Part shown: positions 1 to 56,614 of the stretch, in pieces
Position numbering within the stretch: position 1 is the stretch's first letter
How the letters are laid out: each line of letters begins with the position of its first letter
Source of the DNA: Mobula hypostoma
Lineage: Eukaryota
DNA: 64,000 nt
Direction: 5' to 3'
NCBI RefSeq assembly: GCF_963921235.1
Contig: NC_086097.1
Coordinates: forward strand, 51,772,001 to 51,836,000
Translations under genes and position numbers: made by a program
The notes under the pieces: model-generated
Seen by the model: the letters and a program-made list of their open reading frames with translations, nothing else
Database searches by the model: none
Told to the model about the DNA's origin: nothing

Positions 1-3000
1 TGATCTATCTCACTCCTGTACGCCTCGTCACCATCTGAACTGATCTATCTCACTCCTGTACGCCTCGTCACCATCTGAACTGATCTATCTCACTCCTGTA
101 CGCCTCGTCACCATCTGAACTGATCTATCTCACTCCTGTACGCCTCGTCACCATCTGAACTGATCTGTCTCACTCCTGTACGCCTCGTCACCATCTGAAC
201 AGATCTATCTCACTCCTGTACGCCTCGTCAGCATCTGAACTGATCTATCTCACTCCTGTACGCCTCGTCACCATCTGAACTGATCTATCTCACTCCTGTA
301 CGCCTCGTCACCATCTGAACTGATCTATCTCACTCCTGTACGCCTCGTCACCATCTGAACTGATCTATCTCACTCCTGTACGCCTCGTCACCATCTGAAC
401 TGATCTATCTCACTCCTGTACGCCTCGTCACCATCTGAACTGATCTGTCTCACTCCTGTACGCCTCGTCACCATCTGAACTGATCTTCTCACTCCTGTAC
501 GCCTCGTCACCATCTGAACTGATCTATCTCACTCCTGTACGCCTCGTCACCATCTGAACTGATCTATCTCACTCCTGTACGCCTCGTCACCATCTGAACT
601 GATCTGTCTCACTCCTGTACGCCTCGTCACCATCTGAACTGATCTATCTCACTCCTGTACGCCTCGTCACCATCTGAACTGATCTATCTCACTCCTGTAC
701 GCCTCGTCACCATCTGAACTGATCTATCTCACTCCTGTACGCCTCGTCACCATCTGAACTGATCTATCTCACTCCTGTACGCCTCGTCACCATCTGAACT
801 GATCTGTCTCACTCCTGTACGCCTCGTCACCATCTGAACTGATCTGTCTCACTCCTGTACGCCTCGTCACCATCTGAACTGATCTATCTCACTCCTGTAG
901 GCCTCGTCACCATCTGAACTGATCTGTCTCACTCCTGTACGCCTCGTCACCATCTGAACTGATCTGTCTCACTCCTGTACGCCTCGTCACCATCTGAACT
1001 GATCTATCTCACTCCTGTACGCCTCGTCACCATCTGAACTGATCTGTCTCACTCCTGTACGCCTCGTCACCATCTGAACTGATCTATCTCACTCCTGTAC
1101 GCCTCGTCACCATCTGAACTGATCTATCTCACTCCTGTACGCCTCGTCACCATCTGAATGATCTGTCTCACTCCTGTACGCCTCGTCACCATCTGAACTG
1201 ATCTATCTCACTCCTGTACGCCTCGTCACCATCTGAACTGATCTATCTCACTCCTGTACGCCTCGTCACCATCTGAACTGATCTGTCTCACTCCTGTACG
1301 CCTCGTCACCATCTGAACTGATCTATCTCACTCCTGTACGCCTCGTCACCATCTGAACTGATCTGTCTCACTCCTGTATGCCTCGTCACCATCTGAACTG
1401 ATCTGTCTCACTCCTGTACGCCTCGTCACCATCTGAACCGATCTGTCTCACTCCTGTACGCCTTGTCACCATCTGAACCGATCTACCTCACTCCTGTACG
1501 CCTCGTAACCATCTGAACTGATCTATCTCACTCCTGTACGCCTCGTCACCATCTGAACTGATCTATGTCACTCCTGTACGCCTCGTCACCATCTGAACTG
1601 ATCTGTCTCACTCCTGTACGCCTCGTCACCATCTGAACTGATCTATCTCACTCCTGTACGCCTCGTCACCATCTGAACTGATCTATCTCACTTCTGTACG
1701 CCTCGTCACCATCTGAACTGATCTATCTCACTCCTGTACGCCTCGTCACCATCTGAACTGATCTATCTCACTCCTGTACGCCTCGTCACCATCTGAACTG
1801 ATCTATCTCACTCCTGTACGCCTCGTCACCATCTGAACTGATCTATCTCACTCCTGTACGCCTCGTCACCATCTGAACTGATCTATCTCACTCCTGTACG
1901 CCTCGTCACCATCTGAACTGATCTATCTCACTCCTGTACGCCTCGTCACCATCTGAACTGATCTGTCTCACTCCTGTACGTCTCGTCACCATCTGAAACC
2001 GATCTATCTCACTCCTGTACGCCTTGTCACCATCTGAACCGATCTATCTCACTCCTGTACGCCTCGTCACCATCTGAACTGATCTGTCTCACTCCTGTAC
2101 GCCTCGTCACCATCTGAACTGATCTGTCTCACTCCTGTACGCCTCGTCACCATCTGAACTGATCTATCTCACTCCTGTACGCCTCGTCACCATCTGAACT
2201 GATCTATCTCACTCCTGTACGCCTCGTCACCATCTGAACTGATCTGTCTCACTCCTGTACGCCTCGTCACCATCTGAACCGATCTATCTCACTCCTGTAC
2301 GCCTCGTCACCATCTGAACTGATCTATCTCACTCCTGTAACTCGTCACCATCTGAACTGATCTATCTCACTCCTGTACGCCTCGTCACCATCTGAACTGA
2401 TCTATCTCACTCCTGTACGCCTCGTCACCATCTGAACTGATCTCTCACTCCTGTACGCCTCGTCACCATCTGAACTGATCTATCTCACTCCTGTACGCCT
2501 CGTCACCATCTGAACTGATCTATCTCACTCCTGTACGCCTCGTCACCATCTGAACTGATCTGTCTCACTCCTGTACGCCTCGTCACCATCTGAACTGATC
2601 TATCTCACTCCTGTACGCCTCGTCACCATCTGAACTGATCTGTCTCACTCCTGTACGCCTCGTCACCATCTGAACTGATCTACCTCACTCCTGTACGCCT
2701 CGTCACCATCTGAACTGATCTATCTCACTCCTGTACGCCTCGTCACCATCTGAACTGATCTGTCTCACTCCTGTACGCCTCGTCACCATCTGAACTGATC
2801 TATCTCACTCCTGTACGCCTCGTCACCATCTGAACTGATCTGTCTCACTCCTGTACGCCTCGTCACCATCTGAACTGATCTGTCTCACTCCTGTACGCCT
2901 CGTCACCATCTGAACTGATCTATCTCACTCCTGTACGCCTCGTCACCATCTGAACTGATCTGTCTCACTCCTGTACGCCTCGTCACCATCTGAACTGATC

Positions 3001-6000
3001 TATCTCACTCCTGTACGCCTCGTCACCATCTGAACTGATCTGTTTCACTCCTGTACATCTCGTCACCATCTGAACTGATCTATCTCACTCCTGTACGCCT
3101 CGTCACCATCTGAACTGATCTGTACATCTCGTCACCATCTGAACTGATCTGTCTCACTCCTGTACGCCTCGTCACCATCAGAACACATCTATCTCACTCC
3201 TGTACGCCTCGTCACCATCTGAACTGATCTCCCTCACTCCTGTACACCTCGTCACCATCTGAACTGATCTGTCTCACTCCTGTACGCCTCGTCACCATCT
3301 GAACTGATCTATCTCACTCCTGTACGCCTCGTCACCATCTGAACTGATCTGTCTCACTCCTGTACGCCTCGTCACCATCTGAACTGATCTATCTCACTCC
3401 TGTACGCCTCGTCATAATCTGAACTGATCTATCTCACTCCTGTACGCCTTGTCACCATCTGAACTGATCGATCTCACTCCTGTACGCCTCGTCACCATCT
3501 GAACAGATCTATCTCACTCCTGTACGCCTCATCACCATCTGAACTGATCTATCTCACTCCTGTATGCCTCGTCACCATCTGAACTGATCTATCTCACTCC
3601 TGTACGCCTCGTCACCATCTGAACTGATCTATCTCACTCCTGTACGCCTCGTCACCATCTGAACCGATCTATCTCACTCCTGTACGCCTCGTCACCATCT
3701 GAACTGATCTATCTCACTCCTGTACGCCTCGTCACCATCTGAACTGATCTGTCTCACTCCTGTACGCCTCGTCACCATCTGAACTGATCTATCTCACTCC
3801 TGTACGCCTTGTCACCACCTGAACTGATCAATCTCACTCCTGTACGCCTCGTCACCATCTGAACTGATCTATCTCACTCCTGTACGCCTCGTCACCATCT
3901 GAACTGATCTATCTCACTCCTGTACGCCTCGTCACCATCTGAACTGATCTATCTCACTCCTGTACGCCTCGTTACCATCTGATCTATCTCCCTCCTGTAT
4001 GCCTTGTCACCATCTGAACTGATCTACCTCACTCCTGCACACCTCGTCACCATCTGAACTGATCTATCTCACTCCTGCACACCTCATCACCATCTGAACT
4101 GATCTGTCTCACTCCTGTACGCCTCGTCACCATCTGAACCGATCTGTCTCACTCCTGTACGCCTCGTCACCATCTGAACTGATCTATCTCACTCCTGTAC
4201 GCCTCGTCACCATCTGAACTGATCTATCTCACTCCTGTACGCCTCGTCACCATCTGAACTGATCTGTCTCACTCCTGTACGCCTCGTCACCATCTGAACT
4301 GATCTATCTCACTCCTGTACGCCTCGTCACCATCTGAACTGATCTATCTCACTCCTGTACGCCTCGTCACCATCTGAACTGATCTATCTCACTCCTGTAC
4401 GCCTCGTCACCATCTGAACTGATCTGTCTCACTCCTGTACGCCTCGTCACCATCTGAACTGATCTGTCTCACTCCTGTATGCCTCGTCACCATCTGAACT
4501 GATCTATCTCACTCCTGTACGCCTCGTCACCATCTGAACTGATCTGTCTCACTCCTGTACGCCTCGTCACCATCTGAACTGATCTGTCTCACTCCTGTAC
4601 GCCTCGTCACCATCTGAACTGATCTATCTCACTCCTGTACGCCTCGTCACCATCTGAACTGATCTGTTTCAGTCCTGTACGCCTCGTCACCATCTGAACT
4701 GATCTATCGCACTCCTTTACACCTCGTCGCCATCTGAAACTCTCACTCCTGTACGCCACGTCACCATCTGAATTGATCTGTCTCACTCCTGTACGCCTCG
4801 TCACCATCTGAACTGATCTATCTCACTCCTGTACGCCTCGTCACCATCTGAACTGTTCAACCTCACTCCTGTACGCCTCGTCACCATCTGAACTGATCTG
4901 TCTCACTCCTGTACGCCTCGTCATCATCTGAACTGATCTATCTCACTCCTGTACGCATTGTCACCATCTGAACCGATCTGTCTCACTCCTGTACGCCTCG
5001 TCACCATCTGAACCGATCTGTCTCACTCCTGTACGCCTTGTCACCATCTGAACCGATCTGTCTCATTCCTGTACTACTCGTCACCATCTGAACTGATCTA
5101 CCTCGCTCCTGTACGCCTCGTCACCATCTGAACTGATCTATCTCACTCCTGTACGCCTCGTCACCATCTGAACTGATCTATCTCACTCCTGTACGCCTCA
5201 TCACCATCTGAACTGATCTGTCTCACTCCTGTACGCCTCGTCACCATTTGAACTGATCTATCTCACTCCTGTACGCCTCGTCACCATCTGAACGGATCGA
5301 TCTCACTGCTGTACGCATCGTCACCATCTGAACTGATCTATCTCACTCCTGTACGCCTCGTCACCATCTGAACTGATCTATCTCACTCCTGTACACCTTG
5401 TCACCATCTGAACTGATCTATCTCACTCCTGTACGCCTCCTCACCATCTGAATTTATCTGTCTCACTCCTGTACGCCTCGTCACCATCTGAACTGATCTA
5501 CCTCACTCCTGTACGCCTCGTCATCATCTGAACCGATCGATCTCACTCCTGTACGCCTTGTCACCATCTGAACCGACCTGTCTCACTCCTGTACGCCTCG
5601 TCACCATCTGAACCGATCTGTCTTACTCCTGTACGACTCGTCACCATCTGAACTGATCTATCTCACTCCTGTATGCCTCGTCACCAACTGAACTGATCTA
5701 TCTCACTCCTGTACGACTCGTCACCATCTGAACTGATCTCCCTCACTCCTGTACGCCTCGTCACCATCTGAACCGATCTGTCTCACTCCTGTATGCCTCG
5801 TCACCATCTGAACTGATCTATCTCACTCCTGTACGACTCGTCACCATCTGAACCGATCTATCTCACTCTTGTACGACGCGTCACCATCTGAACTGATCTT
5901 CTCACTCCTGTACGCCTTGTCACCATCTGAAACTCTAACTCCTGTACGCCTCCTCACCATCTGAACTGATCTATCTCACTCCTGTACGCCTCCTCACCAT

Positions 6001-9000
6001 CTGAACTGATCTATCTCACTGCTGTACGCCTTGTCACCATCTGAAAGTCTAACTCCTGTACGCCTCCTCACCATCTGAACTGATCTATCTCACTCCTGTA
6101 CGCCTCGTCACCATCTGAACTAATCTGTCTCACTCCTGTACGCCTCGTCACCATCTGAACTGATCTGTCTCACTCCTGTACGCCTCGTCACCATCTGAAC
6201 TGATCTATCTCACTCCTGTACGCCTTGTCACCATCTGAACTAATCTGTCTCACTCCTGTACGCCTCGTCACCATCTGAACTGATCTATCTCACTCCTGTA
6301 CGCCTCGTCACCATCTGAACTGATCTGTCTCACTCCTGTACGCCTCGTCACCATCTGAACCGATCTGTCTCACTCCTGTACGCCTCGTCACCATCTGAAC
6401 TGATCTATCTCACTCCTGTACGACTCGTCACCATCTGAAGCGATCTATCTCACTCATGTACGACGCGTCACCATCTGAACTGATCTTCTCACTCCTGTAC
6501 GCCATGTCACCATCTGAAACTCTCACTCCTGTACGCCTCGTCACCATCTGAACTGATCTATCTCACTCCTGTACGCCTCGTCACCATCTGAACTGATCTA
6601 TCTCACTCCTGTACGCCTTGTCACCATCTGAAAGTCTAACTCCTGTACGCCTCCTCACCATCTGAACTGATCTATCTCACTCCTGTACGCCTCGTCACCA
6701 TCTGAACTGATCTGTCTCACTCCTGTACGACTCGTCACCATCTGAACTGATCTGTCTCACTCCTGTACGCCTCGTCACCATCTGAACTGATCTATCTCAC
6801 TCCTGTACGCCTCGTCACCATCTGAACTGATCTGTCTCACTCCTGTACGCCTCGTCACCATCTGAACTGATCTATCTCACTCCTGTACGCCTCGTCACCA
6901 TCTGAACTGATCTATCTCACTCCTGTACGCCTCGTCACCATCTGAACTGATCTATCTCACTCCTGTACGCCTCGTCACCATCTGAACTGATCTGTCTCAC
7001 TCCTGTACGCCTCGTCACCATCTGAACTGATCTATCTCACTCCTGTACGCCTCGTCACCATCTGAACTGATCTATCTCACTCCTGTACGCCTCGTCACCA
7101 TCTGAACTGATCTATCTCACTCCTGTACGCCTCGTCACCATCTGAACTGATCTATCTCACTCCTGTACGCCTCGTCACCATCTGAACTGATCTATCTCAC
7201 TCCTGTACGCCTCGTCACCATCTGAATTTATCTGTCTCACTCCTGTACGCCTCGTCACCATCTGAACTGATCTACCTCACTCCTGTACGCCTCGTCACCA
7301 TCTGAACCGATCTATCTCACTCCTGTACGCCTTGTCACCATCTGAACCGATCTGTCTCACTCCTGTACGCCTCGTCACCATCTGAACCGATCTGTCTCAC
7401 TCCTGTACGCCTCGTCACCATCTGAACTGATCTATCTCACTCCTGTACGCCTCGTCACCATCTGAACTGATCTATCTCACTCCTGTACGCCTCGTCACCA
7501 TCTGAACTGATCTCCCTCACTCCTGTACGCCTCGTCACCATCTGAACCGATCTGTCTCACTCCTGTACGCCTCGTCACCATCTGAACTGATCTATCTCAC
7601 TCCTGTACGCCTCGTCACCATCTGAACTGATCTATCTCACTCCTGTACGCCTCGTCACCATCTGAACTGATCTATCTCACTCCTGTACGCCTCGTCACCA
7701 TCTGAACTGATCTATCTCACTCCTGTACGCCTCGTCACCATCTGAACTGATCTATCTCACTCCTGTACGCCTCGTCACCATCTGAACTGATCTGTCTCAC
7801 TCCTGTACGCCTCGTCACCATCTGAACTGATCTATCTCACTCCTGTACGCCTCGTCACCATCTGAACTGATCTATCTCACTCCTGTACGCCTCGTCACCA
7901 TCTGAACTGATCTACCTCACTCCTGTACGCATTGTCACCATCTGAACCGATCTGTCTCACTCCTGTACGCCTCGTCACCATCTGAACCGATCTGTCTCAC
8001 TCCTGTAAGCCTTGTCACCATCTGAACCGATCTGTCTCACTCCTGTACGCCTCGTCACCATCTGAACTGATCTATCTCACTCCTGTACGCCTCGTCACCA
8101 TCTGAACTGATCTATCTCACTCCTGTACGCCTCGTCACCATCTGAACTGATCTATCTCACTCCTGTACGCCTCGTCACCATCTGAACTGATCTATCTCAC
8201 TCCTGTACGCCTCGTCACCATCTGAACTGATCTATCTCACTCCTGTCCGCCTCGTCACCATCTGAACTGATCTGTCTCACTCCTGTACGTCTCGTCACCA
8301 TCTGAACCGATCTATCTCACTCCTGTACGCCTCGTCACCATCTGAACTGATCTATCTCACTCCTGTACGCCTCGTCACCATCTGAACTGATCTATCTCAC
8401 TCCTGTACGCCTCGTCACCATCTGAACTGATCTGTCTCACTCCTGTACGCCTCGTCACCATCTGAACTGATCTATCTCACTCCTGTACGCCTCGTCACCA
8501 TCTGAACTGATCTACCTCACTCCTGTATGCCTCGTCACCATTTGAACTGATCTGTCTCACTCCTGTACGCCTCGTCACCATCTGAACCGATCTGTCTCAC
8601 TCCTGTACGCCTTGTCACCATCTGAACTGATCTATCTCACTCCTGTACGCCTCGTCACCATCTGAACTGATCTATCTCACTCCTGTACGCCTCATCACCA
8701 TCTGAACTGATCTGTCTCACTCCTGTACGCCTCGTCACCATCTGAACCGATCTGTCTCACTCCTGTACGCCTCGTCACCATCTGAACTGATCTATCTCAC
8801 TCCTGTACGCCTCGTCACCATCTGAACTGATCTATCTCACTCCTGTACGCCTCGTCACCATCTGAACTGATCTATCTCACTCCTGTACGCCTCGTCACCA
8901 TCTGAACTGATCTGTCTCACTCCTGTACGTCTCGTCACCATCTGAACCGATCTATCTCACTCCTGTACGCCTCGTCACCATCTGAACTGATCTATCTCAC

Positions 9001-12000
9001 TCCTGTACGCCTCGTCACCATCTGAACTGATCTATCTCACTCCTGTACGCCTCGTCACCATCTGAACTGATCTATCTCACTCCTGTACGCCTCGTCACCA
9101 TCTGAACTGATCTGTCTCACTCCTGTACGCCTCGTCACCATCTGAACTGATCTATCTCACTCCTGTACGCCTCGTCACCATCTGAACTGATCTATCTCAC
9201 TCCTGTACGCCTCGTCACCATCTGAACTGATCTGTCTCACTCCTGTACGCCTCGTCACCATCTGAACTGATCTATCTCACTCCTGTACGCCTCGTCACCA
9301 TCTGAACTGATCTGTCTCACTCCTGTACGCCTCGTCACCATCTGAACTGATCTATCTCACTCCTGTACGCCTCGTCACCATCTGAACTGATCTATCTCAC
9401 TCCTGTACGACTCGTCACCATCTGAAGCGATCTATCTCACTCATGTACGACGCGTCACCATCTGAACTGATCTATCTCACTCCTGTATGCCTCCTCACCA
9501 TCTGAACTGATCTATCTCACTCCTGTATGCCTCCTCACCATCTGAACTGATCTATCTCACTCCTGTACGCCTCGTCACCATCTGAACTGATCTATCTCAC
9601 TCCTGTACGCCTTGTCACCATCTGAAAGTCTAACTCCTGTACGCCTCCTCACCATCTGAACTGATCTATCTCACTCCTGTACGCCTCGTCACCATCTGAA
9701 CTGATCTGTCTCACTCCTGTACGCCTCGTCACCATCTGAACTGATCTATCTCACTCCTGTACGCCTCGTCACCATCTGAACTGATCTATCTCACTCCTGT
9801 ACGCCTCGTCACCATCTGAACTGATCTGTCTCACTCCTGTACGCCTCGTCACCATCTGAACTGATCTATCTCACTCCTGTACGCCTCGTCACCATCTGAA
9901 CTGATCTATCTCACTCCTGTACGCCTCGTCACCATCTGAACTGATCTATCTCACTCCTGTACGCCTCGTCACCATCTGAACTGATCTGTCTCACTCCTGT
10001 ACGCCTCGTCACCATCTGAACTGATCTATCTCACTCCTGTACGCCTCGTCACCATCTGAACGGATCGATCTCACTCCTGTACGCATCGTCACCATCTGAA
10101 CTGATCTATCTCACTCCTGTACGCCTCGTCACCATCTGAACTGATCTATCTCACTCCTGTACGCCTCGTCACCATCTGAACTGATCTATCTCACTCCTGT
10201 ACGCCTCGTCACCATCTGAATTTATCTGTCTCACTCCTGTACGCCTCGTCACCATCTGAACTGATCTACCTCACTCCTGTACGCCTCGTCATCATCTGAA
10301 CCGATCGATCTCACTCCTGTACGCCTTTTCACCATCTAAACCGACCTGTCTCACTCCTGTACGCCTCGTCACTATCTGAACCGATCTGTCTCACTCCTGT
10401 ACGACTCGTCACCATCTGAACTGATCTATCTCACTCCTGTACGCCTCGTCACCATCTGAACTGATCTATCTCACTCCTGTACGCCTCGTCACCATCTGAA
10501 CTGATCTGTCTCACTCCTGTACGCCTCGTCACCATCTGAACTGATCTGTCTCACTCCTGTACGCCTCGTCACCATCTGAACAGATCTATCTCACTCCTGT
10601 ACGCCTCGTCACCATCTGAACTGATCTATCTCACTCCTGTACGCCTCGTCACCATCTGAACTGATCTATCTCACTCCTGTACGCCTCGTCACCATCTGAA
10701 CTGATCTATCTCACTCCTGTACGCCTCGTCACCATCTGAACTGATCTATCTCACTCCTGTACGCCTCGTCACCATCTGAACTGATCTGTCTCACTCCTGT
10801 ACATCTCGTCACCATCAGAACTGATCTATCTCACTCCTGTACGCCTCGTCACCATCTGAACTGATCTGTCTCACTCCTGTACGCCTCGTCACCATCTGAA
10901 CTGATCTATCTCACTCCTGTACGCCTCGTCACCATCTGAACTGATCTATCTCACTCCTGTACGCCTCGTCACCATCTGAACTGATCTATCTCACTCCTGT
11001 ACGCCTCGTCACCATCTGAACTGATCTATCTCACTCCTGTACGCCTCGTCACCATCTGAACTGATCTATCTCACTCCTGTACGCCTCGTCACCATCTGAA
11101 CCGATCGATCTCACTCCTGTACGCCTCGTCACCATCTGAACCGATCTGTCTCACTCCTGTACGCCTCGTCACCATCTGAACTGATCTGTCTCACTCCTGT
11201 ACGCCTCGTCACCATCTGAACTGATCTGTCTCACTCCTGTACGCCTCGTCACCATCTGAACTGATCTGTCTCACTCCTGTACGCCTCGTCACCATCAGAA
11301 CACATCTATCTCACTTCTGTACGCTTCGTCACCATCTGAACTGATCTCCCTCACTCCTGTACACCTCGTCACCATCTGAACTGATCTGTCTCACTCCTGT
11401 ACGCCTCGTCACCATCTGAACTGATCTATCTCGCTCCTGTACGCCTCGTCACCATCTGAACTGATCTGTCTCACTCCTGTACGACTCGTCACCATCTGAA
11501 CTGATCTATCTCACTCCTGTACGCCTCGTCATAATCTGAACTGATCTATCTCACTCCTGTACGCCTTGTCACCATCTGAACTGATCGATCTCACTCCTGT
11601 ACGCCTCGTCACCATCTGAACAGATCTATCTCACTCCTGTACGCCTCGTCACCATCTGAACTGATCTATCTCACTCCTGTACGCCTCGTCACCATCTGAA
11701 CTGATCTATCTCACTCCTGTACGCCTCGTCACCATCTGAACTGATCTATCTCACTCCTGTACGCCTCATCACCATCTGAACTGATCTATCTCACTCCTGT
11801 ATGCCTCGTCACCATCTGAACTGATCTATCTCACTCCTGTACGCCTCGTCACCATCTGAACTGATCTGTCTCACTCCTGTACGCCTCGTCACCATCTGAA
11901 CTGATCTATCTCACTCCTGTACGCCTCGTCACCATCTGAACTGATCAATCTCACTCCTGTACGCCTCGTCACCATCTGAACTGATCTATCTCACTCCTGT

Positions 12001-15000: not shown

Positions 15001-18000
15001 TACGCCTCGTCACCATCTGAACTGATCTGTCTCACTCCTGTACGCCTCGTCACCATCTGAACTGATCTATCTCACTCCTGTACGCCTCGTCACCATCTGA
15101 ACTGATCTATCTCACTCCTGTACGCCTCGTCACCATCTGAACTGATCTATCTCACTCCTGTACGCCTCGTCACCATCTGAACTGATCTATCTCACTCCTG
15201 TACGCCTCGTCACCATCTGAACTGATCTATCTCACTCCTGTACGCCTCGTCACCATCTGAACTGATCTGTCTCACTCCTGTACGCCTCGTCACCATCTGA
15301 ACTGATCTACCTCACTCCTGTACGCCTCGTCACCATCTGAACTGATCTATCTCACTCCTGTACGCCTCGTCACCATCTGAACCGATCTGTCTCACTCCTG
15401 TACGCCTCGTCACCATCTGAACTGATCTGTCTCACTCCTGTACGCCTCGTCACCATCTGAACTGATCTATCTCACTCCTGTAGCCTCTCCTGAACTGATC
15501 TATCTCACTCCTGTACGCCTCGTCACCATCTGAACTGATCTATCTCACTCCTGTACGCCTCGTCACCATCTGAACTGATCTGTCTCACTCCTGTACGCCT
15601 CGTCACCATCTGAACTGATCTATCTCACTCCTGTACGCCTCGTCACCATCTGAACTGATCTATCTCACTCCTGTACGCCTCGTCACCATCTGAACTGATC
15701 TTCTCACTCCTGTACGCCTCGTCACCATCTGAACTGATCTACTCACTCCTGTACGCCTCGTCACCATCTGAACTGATCTATCTCACTCCTGTACGCCTCG
15801 TCACCATCTGAACTGATCTGTCTCACTCCTGTACGCCTCGTCACCATCTGAACCGATCTATCTCACTCCTGTACGCCTCGTCACCATCTGAACTGATCTA
15901 TCTCACTCCTGTACGCCTCGTCACCATCTGAACTGATCTATCTCACTCCTGTACGCCTCGTCACCATCTGAACTGATCTATCTCACTCCTGTACGCCTCG
16001 TCACCATCTGAACTGATCTGTCTCACTCCTGTACGCCTCGTCACCATCTGAACTGATCTGTCTCACTCCTGTACGCCTCGTCACCATCTGAACTGATCTA
16101 CCTCACTCCTGTACGCCTCGTCACCATCTGAACTGATCTATCTCACTCCTGTACGCCTCGTCACCATCTGAACTGATCTATCTCACTCCTGTACGCCTCG
16201 TCACCATCTGAACTGATCTGTCTCACTCCTGTACGCCTCGTCACCATCTGAACTGATCTATCTCACTCCTGTACGCCTCGTCACCATCTGAACGGATCGA
16301 TCTCACTCCTGTACGCCTCGTCACCATCTGAACTGATCTATCTCACTCCTGTACGCCTCGTCACCATCTGAACTGATCTATCTCACTCCTGTACGCCTCG
16401 TCACCATCTGAACTGATCTATCTCACTCCTGTACGCCTCCTCACCATCTGAATTTATCTGTCTCACTCCTGTACGCCTCGTCACCATCTGAACTGATCTA
16501 CCTCACTCCTGTACGCCTCGTCATCATCTGAACCGATCGATCTCACTCCTGTACGCCTTGTCACCATCTAAACCGACCTGTCTCACTCCTGTACGCCTCG
16601 TCACCATCTGAACCGATCTGTCTCACTCCTGTACGACTCGTCACCATCTGAACTGATCTATCTCACTCCTGTATGCCTCGTCACCATCTGAACTGATCTA
16701 TCTCACTCCTGTACGCCTCGTCACCATCTGAACTGATCTCCCTCACTCCTGTACGCCTCGTCACCATCTGAACCGATCTGTCTCACTCCTGTACGCCTCG
16801 TCACCATCTGAACTGATCTATCTCACTCCTGTACGCCTCGTCACCATCTGAACCGATCTATCTCACTCCTGTACGACTCGTCACCATCTGAACTGATCTT
16901 CTCACTCCTGTACGCCTTGTCACCATCTGAACGATCTCTCACTCCTGTACGCCTCGTCACCATCTGAACTGATCTATCTCACTCCTGTACGCCTCGTCAC
17001 CATCTGAACTGATCTATCTCACTGCTGTACGCCTTGTCACCATCTGAAAGTCTAACTCCTGTACGCCTCCTCACCATCTGAACTGATCTATCTCACTCCT
17101 GTACGCCTCGTCACCATCTGAACTAATCTGTCTCACTACTGTACGCCTTGTCACCATCTGAACTGATCTATCTCACTCCTGTACGCCTCGTCACCATCTG
17201 AACTGATCTATCTCACTCCTGTACGCCTCGTCACCATCTGAACTGATCTGTCTCACTCCTGTACGCCTCGTCACCATCTGAACCGATCTATCTCACTCCT
17301 GTACGCCTCGTCAGCATCTGAACTGATCTATCTCACTCCTGTACGCCTCGTCACCATCTGAACCGATCTGTCTCACTCCTGTACGCCTCGTCACCATCTG
17401 AACTGATCTATCTCACTCCTGTACGCCTCGTCACCATCTGAACTGATCTATCTCACTCCTGTACGCCTCGTCACCATCTGAACTGATCTTCTCACTCCTG
17501 TACGCCTCGTCACCATCTCACTCCTGTACGCCTCGTCACCATCTGAACTGATCTGTCTCACTCCTGTACGCCTCGTCACCATCTGAACTGATCTATCTCA
17601 CTCCTGTACGCCTCGTCACCATCTGAACTGATCTATCTCACTCCTGTACGCCTCGTCACCATCTGAACTGATCTATCTCACTCCTGTACGCCTCGTCACC
17701 ATCTGAACTGATCTGTCTCACTCCTGTACGCCTCGTCACCATCTGAACTGATCTGTCTCACTCCTGTACGCCTCGTCACCATCTGAACTGATCTATCTCA
17801 CTCCTGTACGCCTCGTCACCATCTGAACAGATCTGTCTCACTCCTGTACACCTCGTCACCATCTGAACAGATCTATCTCACTCCTGTACGCCTCGTCACC
17901 ATCTGAACTGATCTATCTCACTCCTGTACGCCTCGTCACCATCTGAACTGATCTGTCTCACTCCTGTACGCCTCGTCACCATCTGAACTGATCTGTCTCA

Positions 18001-21000
18001 CTCCTGTACGCCTCGTCACCATCTGAACTGATCTATCTCACTCCTGTACGCCTCGTCACCATCTGAACTGATCTATCTCACTCCTGTACGCCTCGTCACC
18101 ATCTGAACTGATCTATCTCACTCCTGTACGCCTCGTCACCATCTGAACTGATCTATCTCACTCCTGTACGCCTCGTCACCATCTGAACTGATCTATCTCA
18201 CTCCTGTACGCCTCGTCACCATCTGAACTGATCTGTCTCACTCCTGTACGCCTCGTCACCATCTGAACTGATCTACCTCACTCCTGTACGCCTCGTCACC
18301 ATCTGAACTGATCGATCTCACTCCTGTACGCCTCGTCACCATCTGAACCGATCTGTCTCACTCCTGTACGCCTCGTCACCATCTGAACCGATCTGTCTCA
18401 CGGCTGTACGCCTCGTCACCATCTGAACCGATCGATCTCACTCCTGTACGCCTCGTTACCATCTGAACTGATCTATCTCACTCCTGTACGCCTCGTCACC
18501 ATCTGAACTGATCTATCTCACTCCTGTACGCCTCGTCACCATCTGAACTGATCTGTCTCACTCCTGTACGCCTCGTCACCATCTGAACTGATCTATCTCA
18601 CTCCTGTACGCCTCGTCACCATCTGAACTGATCTATCTCACTCCTGTACGCCTCGTCACCATCTGAACTGATCTGTCTCACTCCTGTACGCCTCGTCACC
18701 ATCTGAACTGATCTATCTCACTCCTGTACGCCTCGTCACCATCTGAACTGATCTATCTCACTCCTGTACGCCTCGTCACCATCTGAACTGATCTGTCTCA
18801 CTCCTGTACGCCTCGTCACCATCTGAACTGATCTATCTCACTCCTGTACGCCTCGTCACCATCTGAACTGATCTATCTCACTCCTGTACGCCTCGTCACC
18901 ATCTGAACTGATCTATCTCACTCCTGTACGCCTCGTCACCATCTGAACTGATCTATCTCACTCCTGTACGCCTCGTCACCATCTGAACTGATCTACCTCA
19001 CTCCTGTACGCCTCGTCACCATCTGAACTGATCTGTCTCACTCCTGTACGCCTCGTCACCATCTGAACTGATCTATCTCACTCCTGTACGCCTCGTCACC
19101 ATCTGAACCGATCTACCTCACTCCTGTACGCCTTGTAACCATCTGAACTGATCTGTCTCACTCCTGTACGCCTCGTCACCATCTGAACTGATCTGTCTCA
19201 CTCCTGTACGCCTCGTCACCATCTGAACTGATCTATCTCACTCCTGTACGCCTCGTCACCATCTGAACTGATCTATCTCACTCCTGTACGCCTCGTCACC
19301 ATCTGAACTGATCTATCTCACTCCTGTATGCCTCGTCACCATCTGAACTGATCTGTCTCACTCCTGTACGCCTCGTCACCATCTGAACCGATCTATCTCA
19401 CTCCTGTACGCCTCGTCAGCATCTGAACTGATCTATCTCACTCCTGTACGCCTCGTCACCATCTGAACTGATCTATCTCACTCCTGTACGCCTCGTCACC
19501 ATCTGATCTGATCTATCTCGCTCCTGTGCGCCTCGCACCATCTGAAACTGTCACTCCTGTACGCCTCGTCACCATCTGAACTGATCTATCTCACTCCTGT
19601 ACGCCTTGTCACCATCTGAACTGATCTATCTCACTCCTGTACGCCTCGTCACCATCTGAACTGATCTATCTCACTCCTGTACGCCTCGTCACCATCTGAA
19701 CTGATCTGTCTCACTCCTGTACGTCTCGTCACCATCTGAACTGATCTATCTCACTCCTGTACGCCTCGTCACCATCTGAACTGATCTATCTCACTCCTGT
19801 ACGCCTCGTCACCATCTGAACTGATCTGTCTCACTCCTGTACGCCTCGTCACCATCTGAACTGATCTATCTCTCTCCTGTACGCCTCGTCAACATCTGAA
19901 CTGATCTATCTCACTCCTGTACGCCTCGTCACCATCTGAACTGATCTGTCTCACTCCTGTACGCCTCGTCACCATCTGAACTGATCTATCTCACTCCTGT
20001 ACGCCTCGTCACCATCTGAACTGATCTATCTCACTCCTGTACGCCTCGTCACCATCTGAACTGATCTGTCTATCTCACTCCTGTACGCCTCGTCACCATC
20101 TGAACTGATCTATCTCACTCCTGTACGCCTCGTCACCATCTGAACTGATCATCTCACTCCTGTACGCCTCGTCACCATCTGAACTGATCTATCTCACTCC
20201 TGTACGCCTCGTCACCATCTGAACTGATCTATCTCACTCCTGTACGCCTCGTCACCATCTGAACTGATCTGTCTCACTCCTGTACGCCTCGTCACCATCT
20301 GAACTGATCTATCTCACTCCTGTACGCCTCGTCACCATCTGAACTGATCTATCTCACTCCTGTACGCCTCGTCACCATCTGAACTGATCTGTCTCACTCC
20401 TGTACGCCTCGTCACCATCTGAACTGATCTATCTCACTCCTGTACGCCTCGTCACCATCTGAACTGATCTATCTCACTCCTGTACGCCTCGTCACCATCT
20501 GAACTGATCTGTCTCACTCCTGTACGCCTCGTCACCATCTGAACTGATCTACCTCACTCCTGTACGCCTCGTCACCATCTGAACCGATCGATCTCACTCC
20601 TGTACGCCTCGTCACCATCTGAACCGACCTGTCTCACTCCTGTACGCCTCGTCACCATCTGAACCGATCTGTCTCACTCCTGTACGACTCGTCACCATCT
20701 GAACTGATCTATCTCACTCCTGTACGCCTCGTCACCATCTGAACTGATCTATCTCACTCCTGTACGCCTCGTCACCATCTGAACTGATCTGTCTCACTCC
20801 TGTACGCCTCGTCACCATCTGAACTGATCTATCTCACTCCTGTACGCCTCGTCACCATCTGAACTGATCTATCTCACTCCTGTACGCCTCGTCACCATCT
20901 GAACTGATCTATCTCACTCCTGTACGCCTCGTCACCATCTGAACTGATCAATCTCACTCCTGTACGCCTCGTCACCATCTGAACTGATCTATCTCACTCC

Positions 21001-24000
21001 TGTACGCCTCGTCACCATCTGAACCGATCTGTCTCACTCCTGTACGCCTCGTCACCATCTGAACTGATCTATCTCACTCCTGTACGCCTCGTCACCATCT
21101 GAACTGATCGATCTCACTCCTGTACGCCTCGTCACCATCTGAACTGATCTGTTTCACTCCTGTACATCTCGTCACCATCTGAACTGATCTATCTCACTCC
21201 TGTACATCTCGTCACCATCTGAACTGATCTGTCTCACTCCTGTACGACTCGTCACCATCAGAACACATCTATCTCACTTCTGTACGCTTCGTCACCATCT
21301 GAACTGATCTCCCTCACTCCTGTACGCCTCGTCACCATCTGAACTGATCTGTCTCACTCCTGTACGCCTCGTCACCATCTGAACTGATCTATCTCACTCC
21401 TGTACGCCTCGTCACCATCTGAACTGATCTGTCTCACTCCTGTACGCCTCGTCACCATCTGAACTGATCTATCTCACTCCTGTACGCCTCGTCACCATCT
21501 GAACTGATCTATCTCACTCCTGTACGCCTCGTCACCATCTGAACTGATCTATCTCACTCCTGTACGCCTCGTCACCATCTGAACTGATCTATCTCACTCC
21601 TGTACGCCTCGTCACCATCTGAACTGATCTATCTCACTCCTGTACGCCTCGTCACCATCTGAACTGATCTATCTCACTCCTGTACGCCTCGTCACCATCT
21701 GAACTGATCTATCTCACTCCTGTACGCCTCGTCACCATCTGAACTGATCTATCTCACTCCTGTACGCCTCGTCACCATCTGAACTGATCTATCTCACTCC
21801 TGTACGCCTCGTCACCATCTGAACTGATCTGTCTCACTCCTGTACGCCTCGTCACCATCTGAACTGATCTATCTCACTCCTGTACGCCTTGTCACCACCT
21901 GAACTGATCAATCTCACTCCTGTACGCCTCGTCACCTTCTGAACTGATCTATCTCACTCCTGTCCGCCTCGTCACCATCTGAACTGATCTATCTCACTCC
22001 TGTACGCCTCGTCACCATCAGAACTGATCTATCTCACTCCTGTCCGCCTCGTCACCATCTGAACTGATCTATCTCACTCCTGTACGCCTTGTCACCATCT
22101 GAACTGATCTACCTCACTCCTGTACGCCTCGTCACCATCTGAACTGATCTATCTCACTCCTGTACGCCTCGTCACCATCTGAACTGATCTGTCTCACTCC
22201 TGTACGCCTCGTCACCATCTGAACCGATCTGTCTCTCTCCTGTACGCCTCGTCACCATCTGAACTGATCTATCTCACTCCTGTACGCCTCGTCACCATCT
22301 GAACTGATCTATCTCACTCCTGTACGCCTCGTCACCATCTGAACTGATCTGTCTCACTCCTGTACGTCTCGTCACCATCTGAACTGATCTATCTCACTCC
22401 TGTACGCCTCGTCACCATCTGAACTGATCTATCTCACTCCTGTACGCCTCGTCACCATCTGAACTGATCTATCTCACTCCTGTACGCCTCGTCACCATCT
22501 GAACTGATCTGTCTCACTCCTGTACGCCTCGTCACCATCTGAACTGATCTGTCTCACTCCTGTACGCCTCGTCACCATCTGAACTGATCTATCTCACTCC
22601 TGTACGCCTCGTCACCATCTGAACTGATCTGTCTCACTCCTGTACGCCTCGTCACCATCTGAACTGATCTGTCTCACTCCTGTACGCCTCGTCACCATCT
22701 GAACTGATCTATCTCACTCCTGTACGCCTCGTCACCATCTGAACTGATCTGTTTCAGTCCTGTACGCCTCGTCACCATCTGAACTGATCTATCGCACTCC
22801 TTTACACCTCGTCGCCATCTGAAACTCTCACTCCTGTACGCCTCGTCACCATCTGAATTGATCTGTCTCACTCCTGTACGCCTCGTCACCATCTGAACTG
22901 ATCTATCTCACTCCTGTACGCCTCGTCACCATCTGAACTGATCAACCTCACTCCTGTACGCCTCGTCACCATCTGAACTGATCTGTCTCACTCCTGTACG
23001 CCTCGTCATCATCTGAACTGATCTATCTCACTCCTGTACGCATTGTCACCATCTGAACCGATCTGTCTCACTCCTGTACGCCTCGTCACCATCTGAACCG
23101 ATCTGTCTCACTCCTGTACGCCTTGTCACCATCTGAACCGATCTGTCTCATTCCTGTACTACTCGTCACCATCTGAACTGATCTACCTCGCTCCTGTACG
23201 CCTCGTCACCATCTGAACTGATCTATCTCACTCCTGTACGCCTCGTCACCATCTGAACTGATCTATCTCACTCCTGTACGCCTCGTCACCATCTGAACTG
23301 ATCTATCTCACTCCTGTACGCCTCGTCACCATCTGAACTGATCTGTCTCACTCCTGTACGCCTCGTCACCATCTGAACAGATCTATCTCACTCCTGTACG
23401 CCTCGTCACCATCTGAACTGATCTATCTCACTCCTGTACGCCTCGTCACCATCTGAACTGATCTATCTCACTCCTGTACGCCTCGTCACCATCTGAACTG
23501 ATCTGTCTCACTCCTGTACGCCTCGTCACCATCTGAACTGATCTATCTCACTCCTGTACGCCTCGTCACCATCTGAACTGATCGATCTCACTCCTGTACG
23601 CCTCGTCACCATCTGAACTGATCTATCTCACTCCTGTACGCCTCGTCACCATCTGAACTGATCTATCTCACTCCTGTACGCCTCGTCACCATCTGAACTG
23701 ATCTATCTCACTCCTGTACGCCTCGTCACCATCTGAATTTATCTGTCTCACTCCTGTACGCCTCGTCACCATCTGAACTGATCTACCTCACTCCTGTACG
23801 CCTCGTCATCATCTGAACCGATCGATCTCACTCCTGTACGCCTTGTCACCATCTAAACCGACCTGTCTCACTCCTGTACGCCTCGTCACCATCTGAACCG
23901 ATCTGTCTTACTCCTGTACGACTCGTCACCATCTGAACTGATCTATCTCACTCCTGTATGCCTCGTCACCATCTGAACTGATCTATCTCACTCCTGTACG

Positions 24001-27000
24001 CCTCGTCACCATCTGAACTGATCTCCCTCACTCCTGTACGCCTCGTCACCATCTGAACCGATCTGTCTCACTCCTGTACGCCTCGTCACCATCTGAACTG
24101 ATCTATCTCACTCCTGTACGACTCGTCACCATCTGAACCGATCTATCTCACTCCTGTACGCCTCGTCACCATCTGAACTGATCTTCTCACTCCTGTACGC
24201 CTTGTCACCATCTGAAACTCTAACTCCTGTACGCCTCCTCACCATCTGAACTGATCTGTCTCACTCCTGTACGCCTCGTCACCATCTGAACTGATCTATC
24301 TCACTGCTGTACGCCTTGTCACCATCTGAAAGTCTAACTCCTGTACGCCTCCTCACCATCTGAACTGATCTATCTCACTCCTGTACGCCTCGTCACCATC
24401 TGAACAGATCTGTCTCACTCCTGTACGCCTCGTCACCATCTGAACTGATCTATCTCACTCCTGTACGCCTCGTCACCATCTGAACTGATCTATCTCACTC
24501 CTGTACGCCTCGTCACCATCTGAACTGATCTGTCTCACTCCTGTACGCCTCGTCACCATCTGAACTGATCTATCTCACTCCTGTACGCCTCGTCACCATC
24601 TGAACTGATCTGTCTCACTCCTGTACGCCTCGTCACCATCTGAACCGATCTGTCTCACTCCTGTACGCCTCGTCACCATCTGAACTGATCTATCTCACTC
24701 CTGTACGCCTCGTCACCATCTGAACTGATCTATCTCACTCCTGTACGCCTCGTCACCATCTGAACTGATCTATCTCACTCCTGTACGCCTCGTCACCATC
24801 TGAACTGATCTATCTCACTCCTGTACGCCTCGTCACCATCTGAACTGATCTATCTCACTCCTGTACGCCTCGTCACCATCTGAACTGATCTATCTCACTC
24901 CTGTACGCCTTGTCACCATCTGAAAGTCTAACTCCTGTACGCCTCCTCACCATCTGAACTGATCTATCTCACTCCTGTACGCCTCGTCACCATCTGAACT
25001 GATCTGTCTCACTCCTGTACGCCTCGTCACCATCTGAACTGATCTATCTCACTCCTGTACGCCTCGTCACCATCTGAACTGATCTATCTCACTCCTGTAC
25101 GCCTTGTCACCATCTGAACTGATCTGTCTCACTCCTGTACGCCTCGTCACCATCTGAACTGATCTATCTCACTCCTGTACGCCTCGTCACCATCTGAACT
25201 GATCTATCTCACTCCTGTACGCCTCGTCACCATCTGAACTGATCTATCTCACTCCTGTACGCCTCGTCACCATCTGAACTGATCTGTCTCACTCCTGTAC
25301 GCCTCGTCACCATCTGAACTGATCTATCTCACTCCTGTACGCCTCGTCACCATCTGAACTGATCTATCTCACTCCTGTACGCCTCGTCACCATCTGAACT
25401 GATCTATCTCACTCCTGTACGCCTCGTCACCATCTGAACTGATCTATCTCACTCCTGTACGCCTCGTCACCATCTGAACTGATCTATCTCACTCCTGTAC
25501 GCCTCGTCACCATCTGAACTGATCTGTCTCACTCCTGTACGCCTCGTCACCATCTGAACTGATCTACCTCACTCCTGTACACCTCGTCACCATCTGAACC
25601 GATCGATCTCACTCCTGTACGCCTTGTCACCATCTGAACTGATCTGTCTCACTCCTGTACGCCTCATCACCATCTGAATCGATCTGTCTCACTCCTGTAC
25701 GCCTCGTCACCATCTGAACTGATCTATCTCACTCCTGTACGCCTCGTCACCATCTGAACTGATCTATCTCACTCCTGTACGCCTCGTCACCATCTGAACT
25801 GATCTGTCTCACTCCTGTACGCCTCGTCACCATCTGAACTGATCTGTCTCACTCCTGTACGCCTCGTCACCATCTGAACTGATCTATCTCACTCCTGTAC
25901 GCCTCGTCACCATCTGAACTGATCTATCTCACTCCTGTACGCCTCGTCACCATCTGAACTGATCTATCTCACTCCTGTACGCCTCGTCACCATCTGAACC
26001 GATCTATCTCACTCCTGTACGCCTCGTCACCATCTGAACTGATCTATCCTCACTCCTGTACGCCTCGTCACCATCTGAACTGATCTATCTCACTCCTGTA
26101 CGCCTCGTCACCATCTGAACTGATCTGTCTCACTCCTGTACGCCTCGTCACCATCTGAACTGATCTATCTCACTCCTGTACGCCTCGTCACCATCTGAAC
26201 TGATCTGTCTCACTCCTGTACGCCTCGTCACCATCTGAACTGATCTGTCTCACTCCTGTACGCCTCGTCACCATCTGAACTGATCTATCTCACTCCTGTA
26301 CGCCTCGTCACCATCTGAACTGATCTGTCTCACTCCTGTACGCCTCGTCACCATCTGAACTGATCTATCTCACTCCTGTACGCCTCGTCACAATCTGAAA
26401 CTCTCACTCCTGTACGACTCGTCACCATCTGAACTCATCTGTCACACTCCTGTGCGCCTCGTCACCATCTGAACTGATCTATCTCACTCCTGTACGCCTC
26501 GTCACCATCTGAACTGATCTATCTCACTCCTGTACGCCTCGTCACCATCTGAACTGATCTGTCTCACTCCTGTACGCCTCGTCACCATCTGAACTGATCT
26601 ATCTCACTCCTGTACGCCTCGTCACCATCTGAACTGATCTATCTCACTCCTGTACGCCTCGTCACCATCTGAACCGATCTGTCTCACTCCTGTACGCCTC
26701 GTCACCATCTGAACCGATCTGTCTCACTCCTGTACGCCTCGTCACCATCTGAACTGATCTATCTCACTCCTGTACGCCTCGTCACCATCTGAACTGATCT
26801 ATCTCACTCCTGTACGCCTCGTCACCATCTGAACTAATCTGTGTCACTCCTGTACGCCTCGTCACCATCTGAACTGATCTATCTCACTGCTGTACGCCTT
26901 GTCACCATCTGAAAGTCTAACTCCTGTACGCCTCCTCACCATCTGAACTGATCTATCTCACTCCTGTACGCCTCGTCACCATCTGAACTAATCTGTCTCA

Positions 27001-27896
27001 CTACTGTACGCCTTGTCACCATCTGAACCGATCTATCTCACTCCTGTACGCCTCGTCACCATCTGAACTGATCTGTCTCACTCCTGTACATCTCGTCACC
27101 ATCTGAACTGATCTATCTCACTCCTGTACGCCTCGTCACCATCTGAACTGATCTGTCTCACTCCTGTACGCCTCGTCACCATCTGAACTGATCTATCTCA
27201 CTCCTGTACGCCTCGTCACCATCTGAACTGATCTGTACATCTCGTCACCATCTGAACTGATCTGTCTCACTCCTGTACGCCTCGTCACCATCTGAACTGA
27301 TCTGTCTCACTCCTGTACGCCTCGTCACCATCTGAACTGATCTATCTCACTCCTGTACGCCTCGTCACCATCTGAACTGATCTGTCTCACTCCTGTACGC
27401 CTCGTCACCATCTGAACCGATCTATCTCACTCCTGTACGCCTCGTCACCATCTGAACTGATCTGTCTCACTCCTGTACGCCTTGTCACCATCTGAACTGA
27501 TCTATCTCACTCCTGTACGCCTCGTCACCATCTGAACTGATCTATCTCACTCCTGTACGCCTCGTCACCATCTGAACTGATCTATCTCACTCCTGTACGC
27601 CTCGTCACCATCTGAACTGATCTATCTCACTCCTGTACGCCTCGTCACCATCTGAACTGATCTGTCTCACTCCTGTACGCCTCGTCACCATCTGAACTGA
27701 TCTATCTCACTCCTGTACGCCTCGTCACCATCTGAACCGATCAATCTCACTGTTGTACGCCTCATCACTATCTGAACTGATCTATCTCACTCCTGTACGC
27801 CTCGTCACCATCTGAACTGATCGATCTCACTCCTGTACGCCTCGTCACCATCTGAACTGATCTTTCTCACTCCTGTACGCCTTGTCGCCATCTGAA
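1..27896. repeat. Satellite array of a 40-bp unit (TGATCT[A/G]TCTCACTCCTGTACGCCTCGTCACCATCTGAAC), about 700 copies, continues beyond the left window edge; derived from LINE RT coding sequence
   Basis: 40-bp periodicity is directly visible from base 1 to ~27,896, with an A/G dimorphism at unit position 7 and scattered variant or shortened units. The last unit merges into LINE sequence at 27,891-27,930. Confidence 0.99.
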
Positions 27897-28936
27897 ACTG
27901 TGCCAACAATAGTTGTGTCATCAGCAAACTTATAGATGCATAGCCACACAATCATGGGTGTAGAGATAGTAGAGTCGTGAACTAAGCACGCATCTTTGAG
28001 GTGCACAGGTATTGATTGTCAGTGAGCAGGAGATGTCATTTCCAATCCACACAGACTGGGGACTCCTGGTGAGGAATTTCAAGGATCCTGTTGCAGAGGG
28101 ACGTACAGAATCCAAAGTTTCTGAGCTTGTTTGTAAGAACTGAGGGCAGGATTGTGTTGAACACTGAGCTGTAGTCAATAAAAGCAGCCTGACAAAGGTA
28201 TTGCTATTGCCCAGGAGATCCAAGGCCGAGTGGAGAGCCAGTGAGATTGGATCCGCTGCAATCCTATTGCAGTGAAAGGCAAATTACAGCAGATCCTTCC
28301 TTAGGCAGGAGTAAATTCTTGCCATGACCAACCTCTCAAAGCACTTCATCACAGTAGATGTGACTACCACTGGGAGACAGTCACCCTGCTCTTCTTGGGC
28401 ACTGGTACGATTGGCACCCTTTTGAAGCAGCTGGGAACCTCTGACAGCAGCAGTGAGAGATTGAAGGTTTCCTTCAACACTCCTGTCAGTTGGTTGGCAC
28501 AGGTTTTCAGAGCCCCACCAGGTGCACCATCAGGGCTTGACGCCTTCTGAGAGTATACCCTCTTGAAAGATGTTCTGATGTTGGCTTTCGAGACTGAGAT
28601 GACAGGGTTGCCAGATGCTGCAAGGATTTGCACAGGTGTAGTTTTATTCTCCCTTTTAAAGCGTGCAAAAAAGGCATTGAGCTCAGCCGGCTATGAAGCA
28701 TCACAGCCACTCATGGTAGGTATCGCTTTGTAAAAAGTATTGGCCTGCAACCCTGCCAGAGCTGACGTGCATCTGATTTTTTTCTCTAACCTCAATCAAA
28801 ATAGTTTTTCTGCCATTAAAATAACTTTCAATAAGTCATACCAGGATTTCTTGTATAGTTCTGGATCACTGATCTGGCCCTCGACAGACTCCAAATGTCT
28901 TGGTTCATCCACAGCATTTGGTTTTGGTATGTACGG
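27860..28936 (-). mobile_element. Degenerate Rex1/Babar-type non-LTR retrotransposon, RT region (segment left of the LTR insertion)
   Basis: Minus-strand translation gives YKFADDTTIVG (FADD at 27,917-27,928), APQRCVLS..LY.LYTHDC and CANQLTGV..TFNLSL....VPSCFK..IVPVPKK. These are homologous to the plus-strand RT at 62,405-63,205. Confidence 0.9.
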
Positions 28937-29806: not shown

Positions 29807-29975
29807 CTTCCCCCCTTTAAGGATTTTTACCGGGAGGTAAAAATTACAAACATGAATACATTATTTGATACATACACAAATATACATCTTTATCAGCTAT
29901 TTGGCTAACACAGCGAGTTTGAAGCTGTCAACACCTTGACAGTCATCACATTTTCTGTTCCTTTTATATGTGTAA

Positions 29976-31445: not shown

Positions 31446-31448
31446 TTA

Positions 31449-56600: not shown

Positions 56601-56614
56601 GTCAGCCCCTTCAA

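What the first reader, a model, noticed from the sequence alone, without database searches (positions are those of the whole stretch)
1..27934. A >27-kb satellite born in situ from 40 bp of a LINE reverse-transcriptase gene
Seen in sequence: on the minus strand the LINE reads YKFADDTTIVGTV-SDGDKAYRSEKDQ and then re-enters SDGDEAYRSEIDQ about 700 times. The unit is the 40 bp just downstream of the catalytic FADD motif. An unamplified single-copy homologue sits in the same window (44,596-44,640, CTAATCTATATCACTCTTATATGCTTCCTCATCACTATCTGAA), and a more distant one in the RT at 62,405-63,205 ([21 protein letters not shown]). Established: TE-derived satellites are known, usually from LTRs or UTRs. 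Inference: here the parent junction is preserved, so this is a birth site of a satellite from RT coding DNA, probably seeded by short CAG(T) microhomology.
Basis: partly seen in the sequence, partly recalled or inferred. Interest (0 to 1): 0.8.

Follow-up and report, generated by a model that had tools for sequence, protein, structure and literature searches.

The report
Satellite grown from LINE reverse-transcriptase fragment
More than 700 head-to-tail copies of a 40-base piece of a dead jumping gene's reverse-transcriptase region sit exactly where that piece belongs in one broken copy of the element, so the satellite likely grew there; this is a clear new example of a known way satellites arise.

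Summary
The array is real: 702 units of 40 bp fill window 1-27,896 and run off the left edge. The unit is the segment just after the FADD motif of a decayed LINE (Rex1/Babar-like; label recalled), which continues in register from base 27,897. Every unit, the edge unit included, lacks one codon that the LINE family carries in all four runs laid. The unit is 31-86-fold enriched in the best-matching run over three other sources, and among the rows shown only that run has tandem joints, so the expansion looks lineage-restricted. Multi-kilobase blocks were re-duplicated inside the array. In-place birth is the best reading (0.7) but unproven: the far end lies outside the window and no genome was held. 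The majority unit is closer to the family than the edge unit is, which also fits re-entry of a satellite born elsewhere. The CAG microhomology needs an extra one-base loss, and the 'single-copy homologue' is one paralogue of an abundant family. LINE ORF2-derived satellites and in-register terminal units are published (PMC9659126, PMC10702118). New member of a known kind.

The parts
1..27896 (-). 40-bp satellite array, 702 units, open at the window's left edge; LINE-sense strand is minus; contains re-duplicated multi-kb blocks
27857..27896 (-). Edge unit, contiguous with the host LINE; 3 substitutions from the majority unit; already lacks the 3-bp codon
   Evidence: family letters
27897..28936 (-). 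Host LINE, RT-coding part from upstream of the RT domain to YKFADDTTIVGTV; frameshifts, stops and small deletions; private CAG at 27,898-27,900
   Evidence: tblastn of RVT_1/PF09004 proteins over 28,929-27,863; translation; other letters and loose ends
28937..32314 (-). 3.4-kb LTR element nested in the host LINE; LTRs 28,937-29,806 and 31,449-32,314 (TGT...ACA, 18 mismatches in 866 aligned bases); 4-bp target duplication; decayed internal frames without a Pfam hit; Gypsy-like label is inferred
32315..32520 (-). 5' remainder of the host LINE beyond the LTR element (approximate end); reading continues across the target duplication
   Evidence: translation; weak tblastn 32,510-32,397, E 0.023
44026..45033 (-). 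Paralogous copy of the same LINE family, unamplified; segment homologous to the unit at 44,596-44,638 (43 bp) followed by the normal 3' RT sequence
62207..63708 (+). More distant LINE of the same kind, RVT_1 domain, used as protein query
35757..45803 (+).
   Evidence: translations

Best explanation
The array is a non-coding satellite made of a 40-bp piece of LINE reverse-transcriptase DNA, and it likely arose in place inside this one dead LINE copy by a small local duplication followed by repeated unequal exchange. Shown: the unit is the LINE segment after FADD; the host LINE runs in register up to the edge unit; edge unit and array share a one-codon loss that the family lacks; multi-kb blocks were copied within the array; the expansion is seen in one organism's run. 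Inferred steps: (1) the copy lost one GAG of a GAG-GAG pair by slippage; (2) the segment was duplicated, either by blunt end-joining or through the host's private CAG and the unit's terminal CAG with a later one-base loss in a T run; (3) this happened while the copy was still close to the family sequence, after which the edge unit decayed like the flank; (4) out-of-register sister-chromatid exchange or break-induced copying grew the array to roughly 100-200 kb and kept it homogeneous. No function is implied.
For: In-register colinearity with no spacer (alignment). Unit versus paralogue 33/40 and above 200 of 200 shuffles. Unit reads SDGDE-AYRSEID against SDGDEEAYRSEID in a sawfish protein model, P0121. 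105 of 110 measurable relatives share one motif spacing (120 listed of 911 found; 10 of the 120 had no measurable motif). CCT is put in behind 27,839/27,840 in 4 of 4 runs, and a motif for the 43-bp form was found 0 times in the array. Depth at 27,817-27,856 is 58-, 86- and 31-fold higher in X1 than in X5, X9 and X13 after scaling by the 26 LINE bins. The two go-back joints among the 15 rows shown are in X1 only. Rare variants recur at lags of 183, 204, 251, 277, 455 and 460 units (top lag 44 shared, permutation maximum 17), and six matched blocks differ by 0.4-3.2% against 4.2 +/- 1.2% for random blocks.
Against: The far end, where the 3' half of the LINE is predicted, is outside the window; none of that half lies inside the array and no genome was available. 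The majority unit is closer to the family than the edge unit is (33 versus 30 of 40 to the paralogue; family contigs with the CCT insertion lie on unit 2 far more than on unit 1) and keeps both CpGs, although the host flank differs from the family majority at about 7% or more of sites (12 shown rows in 28,381-28,560). This fits a younger donor as well as an early duplication. The host-type CAG-T-TTCAG joint occurs only once inside the array (19,542). No orthologous unexpanded copy could be identified in organisms B or C. 1,653 joint rows and 105 substitution rows were not shown, contigs drop rare forms, and X1 may be the source sample.
Confidence: 0.7

Rival explanations
1. The satellite was born in another, younger copy of the same LINE family and re-entered here by homology-guided repair or integration of a DNA circle, crossing over within the first 16 bases of the unit.
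For: The majority unit matches the family better than the edge unit does and retains its CpGs. The family offers very many landing sites (18,169-23,046 contigs laid per large run). The two private bases next to the edge resemble the array's own CAG joint and could be a repair scar.
Against: Only 16 bases of homology precede the codon loss, short for homologous recombination (established knowledge, recalled). The edge unit has decayed as much as the flank (3 of 40), which suggests long residence. No look-alike stretch was found among the noted windows of this genome (0 windows; weak, since only noted stretches are indexed).
Confidence: 0.2
2. This is a secondary locus: array plus extended LINE terminal unit was copied here as a block from the true birth site, as appears to happen with multi-locus SINE-derived satellites.
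For: In squamates one extended terminal unit is common to all major sSat instances across many loci (PMC10702118 Discussion).
Against: The flank is over 1 kb of LINE with a nested LTR element and a 5' remainder. An exact 141-bp X1 contig from this flank (28,638-28,778, 0 differences) has depth 14.6, like other single-copy-level contigs listed at 4.7-14.6 (table 8).
Confidence: 0.07
3. The array, or its junction, is an assembly artefact.
For: Perfect tandem repeats are error-prone in assembly, and the best-holding run may be the source sample. No listed contig spans the whole laid stretch.
Against: 127 distinct unit types with nested block structure. Three variant-specific joints seen in the window are also in X1 contigs at depth 131-430. 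The codon-exact junction would not be produced by mis-joining.
Confidence: 0.03

Closest known systems
SINE-derived satellites (sSats) of squamates, Vassetzky, Kosushkin and Ryskov 2023, PMC10702118 (abstract, passages and Discussion read)
   Same: Tandem repeats of an internal piece of a retroelement, with a terminal unit that continues in register into the parent element; up to 1000 units per locus; longer arrays more homogeneous.
   Different: Parent here is the coding RT region of a LINE, not a SINE; unit 40 bp against about 126-151 nt in the passages read; sSats are multi-locus and subtelomeric, whereas this array lies 7.9 kb from a gene and at least 49 Mb and 72 Mb from the ends of its assembled piece (positions listed).
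LINE ORF2-related satellites: chicken HinfI (CR1), Phodopus PROsat (L1 ORF2), seal Pvc20 (L1 ORF2), as listed in PMC9659126 (passages and table read; originals not seen)
   Same: Satellite or tandem repeat whose sequence derives from LINE ORF2 coding DNA.
   Different: In the passages read the link is partial sequence similarity of the monomer; here the whole unit is LINE-derived and the parent junction plus a diagnostic codon loss are preserved.
Harttia catfish satellite HviSat04-2959 with partial LINE Rex-Babar homology, PMC11955569 (passages read; supplementary tables not read)
   Same: A fish satellite that includes Rex-Babar-related sequence.
   Different: A composite monomer of about 3 kb with partial homology; no in-register junction described in the passages read.
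Rex1/Babar non-LTR retrotransposons (review PMC6274825, passages read)
   Same: RT of the same kind as abundant fish LINE proteins bearing RVT_1 and PF09004; 5' truncation without endonuclease is typical of Rex1 copies.
   Different: No hit was labelled Rex1 or Babar and no tree with named members was built, so the clade name rests on recall.

Membership tests
TE-derived satellite (sSat-type) | Long head-to-tail array of homogeneous units | tested here: met
   702 units, mean 0.93 substitutions per 40 bp
TE-derived satellite (sSat-type) | Unit homologous to a segment of a dispersed element | tested here: met
   33/40 to the paralogue, above 200 of 200 shuffles; 12 of 13 residues to P0121; family contigs align on the unit
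TE-derived satellite (sSat-type) | Terminal unit extended in register into the parent element | tested here: met
   Host LINE colinear from 27,897; one side only
TE-derived satellite (sSat-type) | Many loci, subtelomeric preference (typical of squamate sSats, not required of the wider kind) | tested here: inconclusive
   Interstitial by the positions; number of loci not testable without the genome; 0 look-alikes among noted windows
Satellite at its birth site | Both halves of one parent copy flank the array | not testable with these tools
   Far end outside the window; no G000
Satellite at its birth site | Unit carries marks private to the host copy | tested here: inconclusive
   Codon loss shared by edge unit and array and absent from the family, but the edge unit's three substitutions are not the majority state
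Satellite at its birth site | Unexpanded orthologous copy in a relative | tested here: inconclusive
   No tandem joint shown in X5, X9, X13, but no contig could be assigned as the orthologue
Rex1/Babar LINE (host element) | RT domain of the CR1-related Rex1 type | tested here: inconclusive
   RVT_1 in the paralogue and tblastn over the host; no named Rex1 sequence available for a tree
Rex1/Babar LINE (host element) | AP endonuclease next to the RT, often lost by truncation | tested here: inconclusive
   Host traceable only to about 32,520; no endonuclease seen
Rex1/Babar LINE (host element) | Conserved 3' UTR followed by an oligonucleotide tail | not testable with these tools
   Host 3' half not in the window
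Centromeric satellite | CENP-A chromatin on the array | not testable with these tools
   No chromatin data; the array abuts a gene-bearing region

The most novel reading that the evidence does not exclude
This ray genome repeatedly grows single-locus, lineage-restricted satellites of tens to hundreds of kb out of 26-54-bp internal pieces of unrelated dead elements (here a LINE RT; earlier unchecked notes list a SINE, a Penelope endonuclease and a twister module), with the parent junctions intact. The set would be a natural replicate series for how satellites are seeded, and here two private base changes that created a 3-bp CAG microhomology would explain why one copy among thousands became the seed.
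Probability: 0.3. Interest if true: 0.55.

Novelty: new member of a known kind. Interest (0 to 1): 0.32.

Why it matters
Satellite origins are usually inferred from partial similarity after the parent is gone. Here the parent junction, a diagnostic codon loss and relatives without a visible expansion are all available, so birth in place versus re-entry can be decided by reading one more junction. It adds a cartilaginous-fish, RT-coding example to a known class. It would matter more as one of several such loci in one genome than alone. No function or new mechanism is indicated.

Tried and rejected
Whole-genome look: not held, so the far end and other arrays were not examined. Metagenome scans for a LINE motif next to the unit and for the array joint: 0 matches each. 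Rfam on 24,000-64,000 at gathering thresholds: 0 matches. Folding: three units fold no better than shuffles on either strand (z +2.5 and +1.4), nor does the host junction (z +0.3), so hairpin-driven seeding has no support. Coding role: longest open frame 71 codons. A first anchor-based parse merged variant units (591 pieces) and was replaced by a wrap-around alignment. Pfam found nothing in the two host-LINE fragments or the LTR element's frames. Nine runs with small shares were listed; I laid 4 of the 16 listed runs (X1, X5, X9, X13), and the small shares laid proved to be mostly LINE-family sequence; the unlaid ones are no evidence. Summed depth was not used as a copy number; the size estimate uses three variant joints and is rough. 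A direct test of majority unit versus family sequence failed because 105 substitution rows were not shown. Paper searches listed no report of this satellite or of a LINE-RT satellite in sharks or rays; subscription journals are largely missing, bioRxiv supplements are closed and the Harttia supplements were not read. PMC12054243 held none of five terms.

Full report
Observation. The window opens inside a tandem array of period 40 that ends at 27,896. A wrap-around alignment splits it into 702 units of 127 types; 659 of 702 are 40 bp long, 305 of 702 equal the majority unit, and the mean distance to it is 0.93 substitutions, about 2.3%. On the minus strand the flanking frame reads YKFADDTTIVGTVSDGDKAYRSEKDQ and passes without a spacer into units that read SDGDEAYRSEIDQ in rotating frames. 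No open frame in the array exceeds 71 codons, so the array is non-coding.

The parent element. Proteins found with the RT at 62.4-63.2 kb (Pfam RVT_1; 911 hits, 120 listed) are mostly fish LINE proteins with RVT_1, many also with PF09004. They align by tblastn over 28,929-27,863, over 45,033-44,026 and over 62,207-63,708. I call this Rex1/Babar-like from recall; no hit carried that name. The host copy is decayed and is interrupted by a 3.4-kb LTR element at 28,937-32,314 (LTRs differ at 18 of 866 aligned bases; 4-bp target duplication), beyond which about 200 more bases of LINE follow. The closest named protein is a sawfish model, P0121, which points to a cartilaginous fish. An earlier AI note calls the genome a manta ray; I did not check that. 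Positions given with earlier notes put the window at least 49 Mb and 72 Mb from the ends of its assembled piece.

The unit is LINE-derived beyond doubt. It matches the paralogue at 44,596-44,638 at 33 of 40 bases with one 3-bp gap, and 0 of 200 shuffled units reached that score against the rest of the window. It encodes SDGDE-AYRSEID against SDGDEEAYRSEID in P0121. Among 110 of 120 listed relatives with a measurable motif, 105 share one spacing, and their block S-x-x-D-E-x-x-Y (read by eye) is one residue longer than the unit's. Contigs of all four runs laid put CCT in behind 27,839/27,840, while a motif for the 43-bp form was found 0 times in the array. So the array and its edge unit share a codon loss that the family lacks.

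Distribution. Sixteen runs were listed for 26,500-28,936; organism A held 0.32-0.51 of the words, organisms B and C and a skin metagenome 0.05-0.13. I laid four of them on 27,817-29,000. Across the 26 LINE bins X1 tracks X5 and X9 closely (median ratios 1.12 and 1.44), so the family is about equally abundant. In the second unit X1 is 58-, 86- and 31-fold above X5, X9 and X13 after scaling. The two go-back joints among the 15 rows shown occur only in X1; 1,653 rows were not shown. Contigs show presence, not absence, and X1 may be the source sample, so 'lineage-restricted' is likely rather than shown. Three variant joints occur 8, 3 and 2 times in the window and at depth 430, 310 and 131 in X1. 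Against 14.6 for an exact flank contig this suggests 4-7 times the visible array, roughly 100-200 kb, and up to 13 times if single-copy depth is 8. The tool warns that depth is no copy number, so this is an order of magnitude only.

Growth. Rare variants recur in the same order at lags of 183, 204, 251, 277, 455 and 460 units; the top lag shares 44 variants against a maximum of 17 in 50 permutations that sampled every third lag. Six matched blocks differ by 0.4-3.2%, random blocks by 4.2 +/- 1.2%. Multi-kb segments were therefore copied several times within the array, as unequal exchange or break-induced copying would give (inference). The four CpG positions carry transitions in 1.1-6.0% of units against a median of 0.3% elsewhere, consistent with germ-line methylation (inference).

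Seeding. The family reads other bases at 27,898 and 27,900 in 96-97% of depth in X1 and X5. These two host-private changes place CAG just before the unit, matching the unit's last three bases. The host has one more T than the array joint, so a CAG-mediated duplication gives 41 bp and needs a later one-base loss; the host-type joint appears only once inside the array. In the exact 40-bp register there is no microhomology with the paralogue's downstream bases. Hairpins are not indicated. The microhomology idea is plausible but not shown.

Evidence against simple recent birth. The edge unit differs from the majority at 3 of 40 bases and is further from the paralogue (30 versus 33 of 40). The host flank differs from the family majority at about 7% or more of sites, yet the majority unit keeps both CpGs and the family's residues. 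Either the first duplication happened while the host was young, or the array came from a younger copy and re-entered by homology. The far end would decide this and could not be read; no 3' LINE sequence lies within the array. I give birth in place 0.7, re-entry 0.2, block copy from another locus 0.07, artefact 0.03.

Comparison. PMC9659126 (passages and table) lists satellites related to LINE ORF2: chicken HinfI from CR1, PROsat and Pvc20 from L1. PMC10702118 (abstract, passages, Discussion) describes SINE-derived satellites whose terminal unit extends into the parent, with up to 1000 units per locus. PMC12692304 (passages) treats LINEs as an accepted source of satellites. PMC11955569 (passages) has a catfish satellite with partial Rex-Babar homology. 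PMC6274825 (passages) gave the Rex1 features. Two shark and ray genome preprints (passages) report abundant LINEs and tandem repeats, without this satellite in the passages shown; their supplements were not visible. Eight searches listed no report of it. Earlier unchecked notes of this scan describe three other TE-seeded arrays in the same genome, two with both halves flanking; they are leads, and they make this locus look like a recurring habit of the genome rather than a rarity.

Verdict. Observation confirmed; interpretation partly supported. A clean, newly seen member of a known kind, with a diagnostic codon loss that makes its birth directly testable. Interest 0.32.

Noticed in passing
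window 28,937-32,314: LTR element with 98% identical LTRs and a 4-bp target duplication nested in the host LINE; its LTR end had very high summed depth in X1 and X5, less in X9, so an abundant family. Internal frames gave no Pfam hit.
   Followed up: partly
window 26,947, 24,958, 24,364 and 13 more units: 16 units are 34 bp long; 8 of them share one joint and travel with the duplicated blocks, which makes them useful markers of array history.
   Followed up: partly
window 35,510-35,666: A 30-bp minisatellite of 5.3 copies lies about 90 bases upstream of the gene's start codon.
   Followed up: no
window 46,685-46,872: A short SINE-like piece with internal inverted symmetry is inserted in a decayed CR1/L2-like RT; related pieces occur at 42,143-42,290, 42,640-42,754 and 56,611-56,756.
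   Followed up: no
window 57,294-59,864: Two decayed Tc1/Sleeping Beauty-type transposase pieces in opposite orientation, 81% alike over 915 bases.
   Followed up: no
window 32,861-34,740 and 37,346-39,983: Two inverted decayed copies of another element, 71-74% alike, one each side of the gene's first two exons; they look Penelope-like (recalled), no Pfam hit for the frame tested.
   Followed up: no
window 44,161-44,583: Pfam PF09004, named ALKBH8_N, hits weakly (E 0.00046) on LINE sequence downstream of the RT and is precomputed on many LINE proteins, so the name can mislead annotation.
   Followed up: no
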